Positions 30,150 through 36,100 of a stretch of DNA of 64,000 bases are shown in pieces. This DNA is from Octopus vulgaris (lineage: Eukaryota). The position numbers were made by a program. The DNA lies in NCBI GenBank assembly GCA_951406725.2, contig CATOCA020000001.1:2914001-2978000 (forward strand), written 5' to 3'. Numbering within the stretch: the first letter of the stretch is position 1; the number at the start of each line of letters is the position of its first letter.

Positions 30150-33100
30150 AGACGAAGAAGAAGAAAAGGAAGAAGAAGAAATGAAGTGGAAATGAAGAGG
30201 AGAAGAATATGAAGAGATAGATCGATAAATCTTGGGCGAGAAACATGGCTGAAAAAATCAGGGAATATACGGAATCAGAAATCAACATATTCAAATGCAC
30301 TCATACGCATTCTTATATTCATAGTATCAACGACGGAATGCGGTATGCACACTCACATCACACATATTCCCACTCACCCTTGGGGAAATATGGTGAGAGA
30401 GATTATTTATTTCATATCGCTTCATTGTCACAAGAATATTAGAAAACACACGCTTACAAGAAATATATCAGCAGTTTAATTGTATCAGGCGAAATATTCC
30501 AGCTTACAAGTACAGTAAGTTTTTCAGGTTTACAGATAGAATGTATGTGACTATATTATTCGAATATATATTTTCCGCTTCCACTTCAATTGCTCTATTA
30601 CATAAATAACGTGAAGTGAATGACAAAATTCGAAGTTGAATGATAATATCGAAACACGAAGGAGAATATTGAAATAAGAAATGGAGGAGGATGCAAAATA
30701 TAAAATAAAGGAATAATATAGTCACATTTCACACAGAACTACACTTATATATGAACATACACATATACTTCAGCTAAAAATATTTGATGCAAACATGTAA
30801 ACTCACAAACGTTACCATTTCTAATACAAATTCATATCAAAATCATTGAAATTTGGGGAACAAAAATGAGTTATTGAGATGCGAATTGAAACAAAGCAAC
30901 TACAATAAAGGAACATTATATTTTTCCTATTATTTCACTTTCTCTCAAATTCTCTCTCTTTCTTTCACATTGTCTCGCTCTCTCATATTCTCTTTGTATA
31001 TTCCTAAATCGTGTTCATTCTACAAATTTGAATTAATTTTGTTTAGTTCAGTCTGAAATATTATACATTTGTGAGCTTATATATCAGCATCAATTATTAC
31101 TTTCGGAAAATAGTATCAAGAAACTGAACGAACTTACAAGTATTTTAAATTGGAAAGCCCCGTGAATGCTCCTTCTTTTATGGTTGCAATGTTGTTCCAT
31201 CCAAGATCTCTATAGCAGTAAAGAAAGAGTAAAATAGATTATATGGAAAATATTTGTGATACAACATCAAACACTGTGACTTGAGAATGAAAGGAAGAAA
31301 AAGAATAAAGATAACGAAGAAGAAAAGGAAGAAGAAGAAGGAAGAGGAGGAGGCGAAGAAGAATTAGAAGAAGAAAGGAGAAGAGGTAGAAGAAAAAGAA
31401 GAGCAAGAAGGAATAGGAGGAAAAAGGAGGAAGAGGCTGATAAAAGGGAAGAAGATGTAGAAGAAAAAGTAAAAGAAGGAGAAGGAGGGGGAGGAGTAGG
31501 AGGAAGAGAATAACAAGAAGAAGAAGATAAGAATAAGAAAGACGAGGAAGAGGAGGAGGAGAAGTAGATGAAGAAGTAGAAAGAAGAAAGGAGAAGAAGA
31601 AGAAGGAGAAGAAGAAGAAGAAGAAGAAGAAGACGAAAAAGAAGGAGGAGGGGGAGGGGGAGGGGAAGAAGAAGAATTGCAAGAAGAAGGAAGGGAAGAA
31701 CAAGAAGAAGAAGACGTAGAAGAAGTTGAAGCAGGAAAAAGAAGAAGAAGATGAAGAAGAAGAAGGAGGAGGAGGAGGAGGAGGAGGAGAAGGAGAAAGA
31801 GAATAACAAAAACAGAAGTTAAGAAGGAGAAGGAGGAGGAGGAGAAGACGTAGAAGAAGAAGAAGAAGAAGAAGGAAGTGGAGGAAAAAGGAGGAGGAGT
31901 AGGAGTAAGAAGGGGAGAATAAGTAGGAGAAGATGAAAAAGAAGAAGAAGATGAAGGAGGAGGAGGAGGAGGATGAGAATAACAAAAAGAAGAATATAAG
32001 AAGAAAGAGGGGTAGGAGGAGAAGTAGATGTAGAATTAGAAAGAAGAAGAAGAATATAAGAAGAAAAAAAAGAAATAGAAGAATGAGAAGAAGAAAAGAA
32101 AAAGAAGGAGGAGGAGGAAAAGAAGAAGAAGAATTAGAAGAAGAAGCAGAAGAAGAAGAAAAGGAGCAGGAGTGGAAGGGAGGAGGAGAATTACAAGAAG
32201 AAAAAGGAGAAGGAGGGGCGGAGAGGATTGGGTAGAAAAAAAGAGGATGAAAAAAAGAAGTAGAAGAGGGAAGAGGAAAAAGGAGGAGGAAGGGGATGAT
32301 AGGGAAAAAGTAGGTGTAAAAGAAAAAGAATAAGAATAAGAATAAGAAGAAGGAGGAGGAGGAGGAAGGGTTGATGAAGAAGTTGAAAGTAGAAGAAGAA
32401 GAAGAAGAAGAGGAAGAAGAAGAAGAAAGAAGAAGAAGAAGACGAAGAAGAAGAATAAGAAGAAGACGGAGAAGAAAAAGAAGAAAAAAGAAAAAGGAGC
32501 AGGAGTGGAAGGGAGGAGGAGAATTACAAGAAGAAAGAGGAGGAGGAGGGGCGGAGAGGATTGGGTAGAAAAAAAGAAGATGAAAAAAAGAAGTAGAAGA
32601 AGGAAGAGGAAAAAGGCGGAGGAAGGGGATGATAGGGAAAAAGTAGGTGTAGAAGAAAAAGAATAAGAATAAGAATAAGAAGAAGGAGGAGGAGGAGGAA
32701 GGGTAGATGAAGAAGTTGAAAGTAGAAGAAGAAGAAGAGGAAGAAGAAGAAGAGGAAGAAGAAGAAGACGAAGAAGAAGAAGAAGAAGACGAAGAAGAAA
32801 AAGAAGAAAAAAGAAAAAGGAGCAGCAGAGGAGGGGGAGGAAGAGAATTACAAGAAGAAATAGGAGGAGGAGGGGCGGAGTGGAGGGGGAAGAGAATTTA
32901 AAGAAGAAAATGAAGAATAATAATAAGAAAAATATTACAAGAGGAAGGAGGAGGAGGACCAGGAGGAGGAGGAGGAGATATAGAAGAAAAAGAAAAGAAG
33001 AGAAGAAGAAGAAGAAGATGAAGTAGAAGTGGAAGAAAGAAAAGAAGAAGAAGAAGAAGAAGAAGAAGAAGAAGAGGAGGCAGAAGACGAAATGACAAAA

Positions 33101-36100
33101 AGATGATGAAAAAGGCAGAGAAGGAGAAGTAGAATAAGAAAAAGAACAAAAAGAAGAAGAAGGAGAAGAAGAAGAAGAAGAAGAAGAAGAAGAAGAAGAA
33201 GAAGAAGAAGAAGAAGAAGAAGAAGAAGAAGAAGAAGAAGAAGAAGAAGAAGAAGAAGAAGACGAAGAAGACACATTGAAAATCATGGTGTTTAAGATGA
33301 AACTGAAAATATTTTCGAAATATCAGGAAATAATTCAAGGATAGAATGAAAAATTTTGGGCGAAAAGACATGGCAGAAAAATCAGGGAATATACGGAATC
33401 AGAAATCAACATATTCAAATGCACTCATACGCATTCTTATATTCATAGTATCAACAACGGAATGCGGTATGCACACTCACATCACACATATTCCCACTCA
33501 CCCTTGGGGAAATATGGTGAGAGAGATTATTTATTTCATATCGCTTCATTGTCACAAGAATATTAGAAAACACACGCTGACAAGAAATATATCAGCTGTT
33601 TCATTGTATCAGGCCAAATATCCCAGCTTACAAGTACAGTAAGTTTTTCAGGTTTACAGATAGAATGTATGTGACTATATTATTCGAATATATATTTTCC
33701 GCTTCCACTTCAATTGCTCTATTACATAAATAACGTGAAGTGAATGACAAAATTCGAAGTTGAATGATAATATCGAAACACGAAGGAGAATATTGAAATA
33801 AGAAATGGAGGAGGATGCAAAATATAAAATAAGGGAATAATATAGTCACATTTCACACAGAACTACACTTATATATGAACATACACATATACTTCAGCTA
33901 AAAATATTTGATTCAAACATGTAAACTCACAAACGTTACCATTTCTAATACAAATTCATATCAAAATCATTGAAATTTGGGGAACAAAAATGAGTTATTG
34001 AGATGCGAATTGAAACAAAGCAACTACAATAAAGGAACATTATATTTTTCCTATTATTTCATTTTCTCTCTCAAATTCTCTCTCTTTCTTTCACATTGTC
34101 TCGCTCTCTCATATTCTCTTTGTATATTCCTAAATCGTGTTCATTCTACAAATTTGAATTAATTTTGTTTAGTTCAGTCTGAAATATTATACATTTGTGA
34201 GCTTATATATCAGCATCAATTATTACTTTCGGAAAATAGTATCAAGAAACTGAACGAACTTACAAGTATTTTAAATTTGAAAGCCCCGTGAATGTACCTT
34301 CTTTGATGGTTGCAATGTTGTTCCCTCGCAGATCTCTATAGCAGTAAAGAAAGAGTAAAATAGATTATATGGAAAATATTTGTGATACGACATCAAACAC
34401 TGTGACTTCAGAATGAAAGGAAGAAAAAGAAGAAAGATAACGAAGAAGAGGAAGAAGGAGAAGGAGGAGGAAGAGGAGGAGGTGGAGTAGGAGAAGACGA
34501 AGAAGTAGAAGAAGAAGAAGGAGGAAGAAGAAGAAGAAGAAGAAGAAGAAGAAGAAACGGAAGGAGAATTAACGAGGAGGTGGAGGAGGTGGAGGGGATT
34601 GAGGGGCGGGCATGTTTGGAGGAGGACAAAGGAAGGGATGACTGAGGAGGGGGCCGCTGCGGGTAGCAGCAGAAGGAGGAGGAAGAGCTGCAGACTGAGA
34701 ATAAGAGGAAGAATTGGCAGAGAATGGAAAAGAGGGAGACCAGTGACGAAGCAGAAAGTACAGAGAAGAAAAAGAAGAAGAAAAAGAAGAAGAAGAAGAA
34801 GAAGAAGAAGAAGAAGAAGATACAGAAGAAGAAGAAGAAGAGAAGAAGAAGAAGAAGAAGAAGAAGAAGATAGAAGAAGAAGAAGAAGAAGAGGAAGAAG
34901 AAGACGAAGAAGAAGACGAAGACGAAGAAGAAGAAGAAGAGGAAGTAGAAGAAGAAGAAGACGCAGAAGAAGAAGAAGATACAGAAGAAGAAGAAGAAGA
35001 AGAAGAAGAAGAAGAAGAAGAAGCAGAAGAAGAAGAGGGAGTAGAAGAAGAAAACGACGAAGAAGAGAGGAACATGAAGAAGTCACTACGTAAATTATGA
35101 ATGAAAAACACACATGAATGTAAAATATGAGAAAAGAATGGATGTTCAAAATATTTGTGATTTGAATTAGATTTACAAAGCATTCGTTGCAACATCAGTT
35201 TTCAGTGGAAGATATTTTTATCATCTCAGAAGTCAGCTTTATTTATAAATATCTTGTTTCTGTCCAATGAGCATTCTATTTGTTATTACACTTTGCTGTC
35301 AAAAGTAATTTATCTTTGCAAAAGTAAACTCCTCTCCTTTGCATAATTAATGCATAAAAGTTCTTCACAAAAATAAATAAACCCCCAAAACTTCAAGACT
35401 GAAATAATAGACTAGGAAGGAAAACATAACAGAAATAGAAAGGGATTTATTAATAGAATTGGTGATGGTAGAGTGGGGAAACCCTGATATAATTTTGAGT
35501 TATGTGCTACAAAGGAGAACAACCTTACATGGTGATTTAACTGGTTAAGGGTGTTATTTAAAAAAGGGATGTGGCAACATACATTGCCTTAGTTTTTTCG
35601 TCTTTTTTAGCCCTTTGCCCTTACTCTTGCTGTATTAAACCTCAGTTTGTTCCCATTATTAGCCATCTATGCTAAATCCTTCATCCCCTAAATAGCATCC
35701 TTGTTAATCATTCCTGTAAAGGTTAACCTGCAACAGCTCAAACGGAATATTAATGACTAGCAGTATCGCCCGGCGTTGCTCAGGTTTGTAAGGGAAATAA
35801 CTATAAAGCATTTTTAGAGAGTTATAGCCAAAAAATAGCAAAAAAATGGAAAAAAATGATGGTAAATTTTTTTGAGAGTTAAAAAAGGTGGAGTTGCGTC
35901 CCCTAGACGGTCTGTGGTTTGGGTTTCTGATTCTCGACCCCATGTCGAATTTATCGATTTTTTCAGAACTGGGGGAACTTTTCAAAATTTTCGCTGCGTT
36001 AGTTTTGAATTATGACATTGGGCTATGTGTGTGTCAAGTTTCATCAGAATCGGTTGAAAGCCGTGGTCAGAGTGAGGGTACGAGAAAACAGACACACAGA

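What the first reader, a model, noticed from the sequence alone, without database searches (positions are those of the whole stretch)
30230..34440. Duplicated LRR exon cassette in which the exon has diverged far more than its introns
Seen: the two 72-nt LRR exons differ at 7 of 72 positions (4 silent, 3 replacements). The ~1 kb of co-duplicated flanking sequence differs by only about 14 changes by my manual count, and the 87-nt neighbour exon is identical. Two replacements (RG vs GW) fall on the variable positions of the LxLxxN strand, which in LRR proteins forms the exposed binding face. Inference: either introns are being homogenised around diversifying exons or exon-sized tracts are imported from paralogues. 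This resembles the LRR exon shuffling described for immune-type receptors, but here it would be in an adhesion GPCR ectodomain, suggesting a variable-receptor system in cephalopods.
Basis: partly seen in the sequence, partly recalled or inferred. Interest (0 to 1): 0.85.

Follow-up and report, generated by a model that had tools for sequence, protein, structure and literature searches.

The report
Duplicated LRR exons, octopus adhesion receptor
Two neighbouring 72-base exons of an octopus cell-surface receptor gene sit in almost identical 1-kb intron blocks yet differ ten times more than those blocks, a known signature of gene conversion, and the wider gene family varies mainly at the predicted ligand-facing residues.

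Summary
On the minus strand, two 72-nt LRR exons (34264-34335 and 31138-31209) differ at 7 of 72 bases (4 silent, 3 replacements). The other 976 aligned bases of their ~1.05-kb units differ at 11, plus one 2-bp indel (Fisher p=9e-5).

The gene is an Octopus vulgaris LRR adhesion GPCR; public proteins CAJ1099246/7 match the window exon by exon.

Three corrections:
- The 87-nt "neighbour exon" appears in no annotated protein of the family.
- A second cluster of 5 differences in 44 nt lies in the intron.
- Silent sites in the exon are as diverged as replacement sites (dS 0.31, dN 0.06, dN/dS 0.19).

The exon core therefore has an older history than its intron. This pair shows no positive selection. 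The best reading is old tandem cassettes whose unique flanks were homogenised by gene conversion, as in primate L/M opsins. A tract imported from a paralogue is the main rival.

Across the family, cassette number ranges from 2 to 14. Variability concentrates at cassette positions 1, 3, 4, 23 and 14, in or next to the predicted beta-strand. Annotated isoforms differ by whole cassettes.

Nothing points to somatic diversification. Paralogue DNA, read support and transcripts could not be checked.

The parts
37771..37981 (-). Exon holding the start codon (ATG at 37961-37959), the signal peptide and the LRRNT cap. It ends in phase 2 (..GAA TAT TT|gtaag).
   Evidence: It matches residues 12-82 of P0002 at 98.6%. 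The 63-aa peptide is 79-100% identical in 22 Octopus proteins.
34264..34335 (-). LRR cassette exon B, first in the transcript: 72 nt, phase 2/2, encoding DLRGNNIATIKEGTFTGLSNLKY(L).
   Evidence: It equals P0002 residues 83-106.
31138..31209 (-). LRR cassette exon A, second in the transcript: 72 nt, phase 2/2, encoding DLGWNNIATIKEGAFTGLSNLKY(L). All 7 exon differences lie in 31152-31203.
   Evidence: It equals P0002 residues 107-130.
30253..31300 (.). Unique unit U_A: exon A plus 91 nt of upstream and 885 nt of downstream intron. It is the near-identical partner of U_B.
   Evidence: 1048 aligned columns with 18 substitutions and one 2-bp indel.
33377..34426 (.). Unique unit U_B: exon B plus flanking intron.
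30455..30498 (.). Second island of divergence: 5 substitutions in 44 nt (partner 33579-33622). It is intronic in the annotated model.
   Evidence: Both clusters arising together: 2e-5 of 50,000 random placements.
30507..30593 (-). It is an open, AG/GT-flanked stretch that no annotated protein uses.
   Evidence: Its peptide is in 0 of 27 family proteins. P0002 skips it. Its DNA similarity to LRR exons is no better than shuffles.
27975..30180 (.). Degenerate (GAA)n array, which reads (TTC)n in the transcript, downstream of U_A.
   Evidence: TRF: period 3, 731 copies, 72% matches.
31316..33271 (.). Degenerate (GAA)n array between U_A and U_B.
   Evidence: TRF. It is 68% identical to the first array, against 63-64.5% for block-shuffled controls. 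It holds an internal 333-nt duplication (family D5).
34764..35082 (.). (GAA)n array upstream of U_B. The purine-rich sequence already begins at about 34427.
25362..25433 (-). Third LRR exon, the conserved 'C-type': 72 nt, phase 2/2, encoding YLHNNPIEKYEDGAFLFLPSIVK(M).
21358..21567 (-). LRRCT exon (..NNLMKCGCHLPAFVKY..).
   Evidence: It is 78-99% identical in 22 Octopus proteins.
170..16516 (-). Further ectodomain exons of the same gene. Approximate tblastn limits: 16430-16516, 14268-14456, 12725-12838, 11655-11711, 2423-2581, 170-394. The GPS and 7TM exons lie beyond the window's start.
   Evidence: P0002 residues 224-486.

Best explanation
The region is the 5' part of an Octopus vulgaris LRR-bearing adhesion GPCR gene, read on the minus strand.

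Two consecutive 24-residue LRR modules are each encoded by a 72-nt exon. Both exons are phase 2/2, so either could be added, lost or skipped without breaking the reading frame. Each exon sits in a ~1.05-kb unique block bounded by kilobase-long degenerate (GAA)n arrays.

The two cassettes are old duplicates. Non-allelic gene conversion between the blocks has recently made them almost identical (0.64% divergence), except for two short islands. One island is the core of the exon, which keeps the old divergence at silent and replacement sites alike.

My inference is that conversions which erase the differences at ligand-facing codons (positions 3, 4 and 14) are removed by selection, and that nearby silent differences survive by linkage. 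This is the explanation given for primate L/M opsin genes.

**Shown:** the gene identity, the exon structure, the contrast in divergence, and the family-wide pattern of variable positions.
**Inferred:** the age of the duplication, conversion as the mechanism, and selection against homogenisation.
For: - **Exon versus intron.** Differences are 7 of 72 in the exon and 11 of 976 outside it (p=9.4e-5).
- **Silent sites.** They are diverged too: 4 differences in 15.8 silent sites give dS 0.31, against dN 0.059, so dN/dS is 0.19. Silent sites versus flank gives p=5.6e-5. Selection on the protein alone cannot produce this.
- **Clustering.** Both clusters arising together occurred in 2e-5 of 50,000 random placements.
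- **Flanking arrays.** The (GAA)n arrays beside the blocks are barely more alike (68%) than block-shuffled controls (63-64.5%). Identity falls abruptly at 30253 and decays over about 120 nt after 31300. This argues against a recent duplication of the whole 3.1-kb unit.
- **Architecture elsewhere.** Two type-A cassettes followed by the C-type repeat also occur in paralogues P0003 and P0006, and P0003 has the same 'DLRG' first cassette.
- **An independent cassette.** The 21 codons of intron read through in another gene's model (P0013 group) are identical to the intron before exon A. The following 17 exon codons match at only 8 of 17.
- **Local exchange.** A cassette's nearest relative lies in the same protein 17.5 of 72 times, against 5.0 expected (0 of 500 permutations reach this).
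- **Precedent.** In gibbon L/M opsins, exons are more divergent than introns, both dS and dN exceed intron divergence, and dN is below dS. The authors attribute this to intronic gene conversion plus selection against conversion in exons (PMC3213168, passages read).
Against: - Only two DNA copies could be compared, so no conversion test with outgroups or orthologues was possible.
- One of the two islands is intronic, so escape from homogenisation is not specific to the exon.
- If two patches of these sizes fell at random, at least one would overlap the exon 22% of the time and lie wholly inside it 4.8% of the time. Selection is therefore not demonstrated by this pair alone.
- Degenerate microsatellite arrays may turn over quickly, which weakens the argument against a recent 3.1-kb duplication.
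- Two of the differences are adjacent-base pairs (31169-70 and 31202-3). A pasted-in foreign tract would produce these equally well.
Confidence: 0.55

Rival explanations
1. The two blocks are young, or were recently made fully identical. One copy then received short ectopic conversion tracts from cassettes of paralogous genes. One tract covers the exon core, with minimum extent 31152-31203 and maximum extent bounded by 30940 and 31263. The other covers 30455-30498.
For: - The family holds many near-identical cassettes on the same contig and elsewhere.
- Introns next to cassettes are nearly identical between different genes, so an imported tract would show up mainly at exon positions.
- Adjacent-base differences and tight clustering fit copying from a template.
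- An intronic island is expected under this model.
Against: - No donor could be looked for, because no octopus DNA outside the window was available.
- It leaves unexplained why cassette exons differ more than their introns across the whole family.
- The flanking arrays do not look recently duplicated.
Confidence: 0.27
2. The cassette was duplicated recently and the exon then changed quickly, through positive selection or locally raised mutation on the binding face.
For: - Two of the three replacements lie at positions 3-4 and the third at position 14. These are among the five most variable family positions.
- Two dinucleotide changes could be multi-nucleotide mutations.
Against: - Four of the seven changes are silent.
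- dN/dS is 0.19.
- A comparable cluster lies in non-coding sequence.
- The flanking arrays are not alike.
Confidence: 0.07
3. The second unit is an assembly artefact: two haplotypes of a single cassette laid in tandem within low-complexity GAA sequence.
For: - Overall unit divergence (1.7%) is close to the 1.22% heterozygosity reported for the published O. vulgaris assembly. That assembly was built from Nanopore reads and collapsed with purge_dups (PMC10700109, passages read).
- I did not verify that the window comes from that assembly.
Against: - The window has no gaps.
- Exon divergence of 10%, with dS 0.31, is far above allelic levels.
- The intervening arrays differ in internal structure.
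- Paralogues and O. sinensis proteins also carry two or more such cassettes.
- The annotated protein uses both exons, although that model derives from the same assembly.
Confidence: 0.06

Closest known systems
Catarrhine L/M opsin genes, the gibbon study (PMC3213168; passages read)
   Same: Duplicates lie in tandem. Exons are more divergent than introns. Both silent and replacement divergence exceed intron divergence, and dN is below dS. The pattern is explained by gene conversion in introns with selection against conversion where functional differences lie.
   Different: Here the duplicates are single 72-nt exons inside one gene rather than whole genes. The island is only about 52 nt. A second island is intronic. 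No population or orthologue data are available.
Variable lymphocyte receptors (VLR) of lampreys and hagfish
   Same: Both are capped LRRNT-LRR-LRRCT solenoids of 24-residue modules, with a nearly invariant scaffold and variability concentrated in and next to the beta-strand. Hagfish VLR A29 (2o6q) is among the best fold matches to the model of paralogue P0007 (TM-score 0.80 on the target).
   Different: From recall, VLR genes are assembled somatically from donor cassettes that are not exons. Here the cassettes are ordinary spliced exons with AG/GT sites in intact germline genes. They are joined to a GPS motif and seven transmembrane helices.
Octopus-specific adhesion GPCR expansion, 'group 3' of Ritschard et al. 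2019 (PMC6408891; passages read)
   Same: An Octopus-restricted expansion of adhesion GPCRs with GPS and 7TM, with LRR in 5 of 22 sequences. The genes are co-localised. Branch tests suggest positive selection. Expression is reported in the axial nerve cord, suckers and skin.
   Different: I could not confirm that the window's gene belongs to that group, because its supplementary tables are closed. In the passages read, that study reports no sites under positive selection and does not describe the LRR cassette structure.
Vertebrate LRR-bearing adhesion GPCRs, ADGRA2/3 (GPR124/125)
   Same: An LRR domain lies ahead of the GPS/7TM region. The abstract of PMC2571103, seen in the listing, names Ig, LRR and hormone-binding domains for GPR125.
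   Different: These are single-copy vertebrate genes. P0002 shows no Ig or HRM match at E<=0.001. No cassette-number variation is known to me (recall).
Nogo receptor, LGR4/5, LINGO-1 and IGFALS: typical 24-residue extracellular LRR proteins
   Same: These are the best sequence matches (IGFALS 7wrq E=6e-78, then TLR3 and LGR4/5) and fold matches (Nogo receptor 5o0l E=5e-13, LGR4).
   Different: None is part of a many-gene family with a variable number of modules.

Membership tests
Adhesion GPCR (class B2) | A GPS motif (GAIN domain) directly ahead of a secretin-type seven-transmembrane domain. | tested here: met
   P0002 has GPS PF01825 at 506-550 (E=1.1e-10) and 7tm_2 PF00002 at 566-800 (E=6.6e-34). 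These exons lie outside the window. The window encodes P0002 residues 12-486; the window translation equals P0002 across each exon, and the few mismatches in the tblastn pieces are boundary residues that run past the splice sites. Self-cleavage at the GPS was not tested.
Capped extracellular LRR domain (LRRNT-LRR-LRRCT) | LxxLxLxxNxL repeats of about 24 residues between cysteine caps, folding into a solenoid with one short beta-strand per repeat. | tested here: met
   LRR_8 scores E=2e-25 in P0002. The consensus is visible in exons B, A and C. The model of paralogue P0007 has strands at 63-65, 87-89 ... 231-233, an exact 24-residue period, with pLDDT 84-98 over residues 61-280. Fold matches are to Nogo receptor, LGR4 and VLR.
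Concerted evolution with a selected island of divergence (opsin type) | Intron divergence is lower than silent-site divergence of the enclosed exon. | tested here: met
   Divergence is 11 of 976 (or 6 of 932) in the intron against 4 of 15.8 silent sites (p=5.6e-5 and 1.1e-5).
Concerted evolution with a selected island of divergence (opsin type) | The duplication predates the homogenisation: exon cores group by position across species, while introns group by species. | not testable with these tools
Concerted evolution with a selected island of divergence (opsin type) | The island coincides with functionally distinct residues and nowhere else. | tested here: inconclusive
   The exon island holds positions 3, 4 and 14, which are among the five most variable family positions. 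A second island is intronic. A random patch would fall wholly inside the exon 4.8% of the time.
VLR-type somatically assembled receptor | An incomplete germline gene is completed by copying from flanking donor cassettes that are not exons. | tested here: not met
   The gene is intact. Its cassettes have canonical AG/GT sites in phase 2/2, and the annotated protein uses them in genomic order.
VLR-type somatically assembled receptor | Variability is concentrated on the concave beta-sheet residues of an invariant scaffold. | tested here: met
   In 78 unique type-A cassettes, entropy is 2.7, 3.3, 3.1 and 2.8 bits at positions 1, 3, 4 and 23, 2.2 at position 14, and at most 1.7 elsewhere. Positions 23, 24 and 1 form the predicted strand. 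That positions 3-4 face the ligand is textbook LRR knowledge and was not measured here.
ADGRG6 (GPR126) orthologue, as the public name 'G6-like' suggests | A CUB and pentraxin ectodomain ahead of the GAIN domain (architecture recalled). | tested here: not met
   The Pfam scan of P0002 lists only LRR families, GPS and 7tm_2 at E<=0.001. The name appears to be an automatic transfer.

The most novel reading that the evidence does not exclude
Octopus LRR adhesion GPCRs may form a germline-diversified surface-recognition repertoire. Dozens of genes are built from interchangeable 72-nt LRR exons. The ligand-facing residues would be kept different by selection, while conversion and unequal exchange shuffle and multiply the cassettes. 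Alternative inclusion of cassettes would multiply the forms further. Functionally this would parallel VLRs, Dscam or clustered protocadherins, serving self/non-self, chemotactile or neuronal recognition. The pair in this window would be one snapshot of that process. A somatic layer of diversification is not excluded, but nothing points to it.
Probability: 0.2. Interest if true: 0.8.

Novelty: new variant of a known kind. Interest (0 to 1): 0.45.

Why it matters
The pair itself is a textbook case: exons that stay different inside homogenised introns.

What it leads to is less ordinary. An Octopus-restricted family of adhesion GPCRs has ectodomains built from a variable number of near-identical LRR exons. 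The differences between those exons sit almost entirely at positions in or next to the predicted beta-strand.

In five full-text searches, the only paper I found on this expansion treats it through the 7TM domain and reports no selected sites.

If the pattern survives codon-level tests, it gives a concrete candidate for a diversified recognition system in octopus skin, suckers or nerve cord. Existing genomes and long-read cDNA would be enough to test it.

Tried and rejected
- **Strict LRR motif scan** of all six frames. It missed even the two exons and was dropped. tblastn with the exon peptides found only the two copies (E about 1e-10 to 1e-13); the next best hit had E=0.44.
- **The 87-nt 'exon'.** Its peptide is in 0 of 27 family proteins. 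It has no DNA similarity to LRR exons beyond shuffles: scores 20 and 18, against shuffle means of about 17 and maxima of 26-28.
- **A structured RNA in the intron** as a reason for its conservation. Rfam gave 0 matches over the whole window.
- **Colinear homology of the (GAA)n arrays.** Identity is 68% against 63-64.5% for shuffled blocks, and there are no long shared stretches at the 3.1-kb offset. This is treated as not shown.
- **Pfam on the Cys-rich exon 14268-14456 and several intronic ORFs.** No family for the exon; only transposon domains for the ORFs.
- **Per-site dN/dS, a donor search and cassette counts in other haplotypes.** None was possible.
- **The joined spliced model.** The window's exons were not assembled or searched as a joined model. 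Exons were searched one at a time.
- **Supplementary tables of PMC6408891** (gene lists, selection results). These are closed and may bear on whether this gene is in 'group 3'.

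
Full report
**What is in the sequence.**
- Two direct repeats lie 3124-3126 nt apart: 30253-30552 vs 33377-33676 and 30941-31240 vs 34067-34366. Each pair is 98% identical.
- Self-BLAST joins 28156-31434 with 31294-34552 at 80.9% over 3400 columns.
- The window has no N.
- Each repeat is a ~1.05-kb unique block. 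The blocks are separated and flanked by degenerate (GAA)n arrays at 27975-30180, 31316-33271 and 34764-35082.
- On the minus strand each block holds a 72-nt open stretch with AG/GT sites:
  - 34264-34335 encodes DLRGNNIATIKEGTFTGLSNLKY.
  - 31138-31209 encodes DLGWNNIATIKEGAFTGLSNLKY.
- Each stretch starts with the last base of a Leu codon and ends with the first two bases of the next one, so both are phase 2/2.
- tblastn with these peptides finds only the two copies in the window.

**The gene.** I searched exon by exon. I did not build or search a joined spliced model of the window's exons.
- The exon at 37771-37981 encodes a signal peptide and an LRRNT cap.
- Its 63-aa peptide found 22 proteins among 26 candidates, all from Octopus vulgaris or O. 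sinensis. Two are 100% identical: P0001 and P0002 (CAJ1099246/7), named 'adhesion G-protein coupled receptor G6-like'.
- P0002 maps back onto the window's minus strand in order:
  - 37982-37770, then exon B, exon A and a third 72-nt LRR exon (25362-25433)
  - the LRRCT exon (21358-21567)
  - six further ectodomain exons, down to 170-394
- P0002 carries LRR_8, GPS (506-550) and 7tm_2 (566-800). The GPS and 7TM exons lie beyond the window.
- The 'G6-like' name looks automatic, because no CUB or pentraxin domain is present.

**Checking the numbers.**
- Over 1048 aligned columns there are 18 substitutions and one 2-bp indel.
- Seven of the substitutions fall in the 72-nt exon and 11 in the other 976 columns (Fisher p=9.4e-5).
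  - The 87-nt 'neighbour exon' (30507-30593) is identical in both copies. At the background rate only about 0.6 differences are expected there. The annotated protein skips it. Its peptide occurs in 0 of 27 family proteins. It has no DNA similarity to the LRR exons beyond shuffles.
  - There is a second cluster of 5 substitutions in 44 nt at 30455-30498, in the intron.
- Outside the two clusters, divergence is 6 of 932 (0.64%).
- Seven or more substitutions in a 52-nt window arose in 0.1% of 50,000 random placements. Both clusters together arose in 0.002%.

**What the contrast means.**
- Nei-Gojobori counts give 4 silent differences in 15.8 silent sites (dS 0.31) and 3 replacements in 53.2 sites (dN 0.059). 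dN/dS is therefore 0.19.
- Silent sites in the exon are about 20-40 times more diverged than the flanks (p=5.6e-5). Selection on the protein after a recent duplication cannot explain this.
- The exon core therefore has a deeper history than the intron around it.
- The same signature is described for gibbon L/M opsins. There it is explained by gene conversion in introns and selection against conversion in exons (PMC3213168, passages read).
- A recent duplication of the whole 3.1-kb unit is unlikely:
  - The two large (GAA)n arrays are 68% identical, against 63-64.5% for block-shuffled controls.
  - Identity drops abruptly at 30253. On the other side it decays over about 120 nt.
- I therefore favour old tandem cassettes whose unique blocks were recently homogenised.
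- The evidence against this reading is real:
  - One island is intronic.
  - Two random patches of these sizes would overlap the exon 22% of the time. One would lie wholly inside it 4.8% of the time.
  - A short tract copied in from a paralogous cassette would look the same. I could not search for a donor.

**The family.**
- Three exon searches gave 46 cluster representatives. Of these, 45 are named and all are from Octopus: vulgaris, sinensis and bimaculoides. One was unnamed and I left it out.
- The signal peptide and LRRNT exon is nearly invariant, with a mean of 0.33 bits per column.
- The number of 24-residue cassettes between the caps ranges from 2 to 14, counting the conserved last repeat.
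- The cassettes fall into three types:
  - type A: xLxxNNI[AS]TIKEGxFTGLSNLKxL
  - type B: xLxxNKISRIEKEMFQGLHNLExL
  - a terminal type C
- Entropy in 78 unique type-A cassettes:

| Cassette position | Entropy (bits) |
|---|---|
| 1 | 2.7 |
| 3 | 3.3 |
| 4 | 3.1 |
| 23 | 2.8 |
| 14 | 2.2 |
| all others | at most 1.7 |

- An AlphaFold model of paralogue P0007 puts a three-residue strand at positions 23-24-1 of every cassette, with pLDDT 84-98 across the repeats.
- Its best fold matches are Nogo receptor, LGR4 and a hagfish VLR.
- That the x positions of xLxLxxN face the ligand is textbook LRR knowledge. I did not measure it.
- The three replacements in the window's pair fall on positions 3, 4 and 14.
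- Whether this variability reflects positive selection or merely weak constraint cannot be decided without codon data.

**More on exchange and splicing.**
- A cassette's nearest relative lies in the same protein 17.5 of 72 times, against 5.0 expected (0 of 500 permutations reach this). One paralogue (P0016) has two consecutive identical cassettes.
- Models of another gene on the same contig (the P0013 group) read 21 codons of intron ahead of a cassette. These are identical to the intron before exon A in the window. The next 17 exon codons match at only 8 of 17.
- In O. sinensis RefSeq models, one gene has 13 isoforms of 409, 385, 361 or 337 residues that differ in which cassettes they include. 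Another gene has seven isoforms of 525, 501 or 477 residues. These are predicted models, and some cassettes look like chimaeras of two repeats. They suggest combinatorial use but do not prove it.

**Literature.**
- Ritschard et al. 2019 (PMC6408891, passages read) describe an octopus-specific adhesion GPCR expansion, their 'group 3'. LRR occurs in 5 of 22 sequences, the genes are co-localised, and branch-level selection signals are reported. No selected sites were found. Expression is reported in the nerve cord, suckers and skin.
- I could not see their supplementary tables, so I cannot confirm that this gene belongs to the group.
- Five searches found no paper describing the LRR cassette structure or its variable positions in octopus. 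One review that matched the terms mentions octopus only for protocadherins.
- The published O. vulgaris assembly used Nanopore reads and purge_dups, and reports 1.22% heterozygosity (PMC10700109, passages read). This keeps an assembly artefact possible but unlikely, given the 10% exon divergence and the unlike arrays.

**Verdict.**
The mosaic history and the adhesion-GPCR setting hold. 'Diversifying exons' is not shown for this pair. A somatic variable-receptor system has no support.
- The pair is a new example of a known process. The cassette-variable LRR adhesion GPCR family is a new variant of known kinds and is worth a genome-wide test.

Noticed in passing
window 40127-42810 vs 49478-52132, continuing 42960-43495 vs 52112-52654: A direct repeat of about 3.2 kb at 95-96% identity, with copies 9.35 kb apart, upstream of the receptor gene. 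It is probably two copies of a mobile element or a local duplication. ORFs inside gave no Pfam match.
   Followed up: partly
window 8188-8928 (+): A 246-aa open frame with a mariner-type transposase domain (Transposase_1, E=7.6e-25), sitting inside an intron of the receptor gene.
   Followed up: partly
window 53079-54404 (+), 56608-56889 (-); repeats 55225-56618 vs 58187-59049: Retrotransposon remains: a 441-aa frame with a weak zf-RVT match just under Pfam's cut-off (27.1 against 27.5 bits), an RVT_1 fragment (E=2.4e-12), and 94-99% identical repeated pieces nearby.
   Followed up: partly
window 26880-27008 (-): A piece of the intron between the second and third LRR exons matches residues 209-251 of paralogue model P0014 at 88%. 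That model is named 'MIB2-like' and is a chimaera of LRR cassettes and ankyrin repeats. Either the paralogue model reads intron or transposon sequence as coding, or an unannotated exon exists here.
   Followed up: no
proteins P0013, P0033-P0036 (O. vulgaris, same contig as the window's gene): These public models contain three LRR cassettes read in the wrong frame (..SEREQHCNNQRRSIHGAFKFK..) and a stretch of intron. This is an annotation error caused by the near-identical cassettes, so that gene has more cassettes than its model shows.
   Followed up: partly
window 14268-14456 (-): This ectodomain exon is rich in cysteines and ends ..CTGCCVGHLCNKN... It reminded me of the Ly6/uPAR three-finger motif (recall only). 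Pfam gave no match. It is 61-100% identical in 38 hits, all Octopus apart from one unnamed record.
   Followed up: partly
window 38296-38430 (-): This stretch matches the first 45 residues of O. sinensis protein P0021 at 80%. It is likely an alternative upstream exon. P0001 and P0002 instead begin with 11 residues that were not found in the window.
   Followed up: no
window 9700-10045 vs 10703-10358: A 346-nt inverted repeat at 99% identity with arms about 300 nt apart, inside an intron.
   Followed up: no
window 27975-30180 and 31316-33271: Kilobase-long purine/pyrimidine (GAA/TTC)n tracts lie in the introns on either side of each cassette. The second holds a 333-nt internal duplication at 96% identity. 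From recall, such tracts can form triplex DNA and stall replication, which could favour unequal exchange. This was not tested.
   Followed up: no
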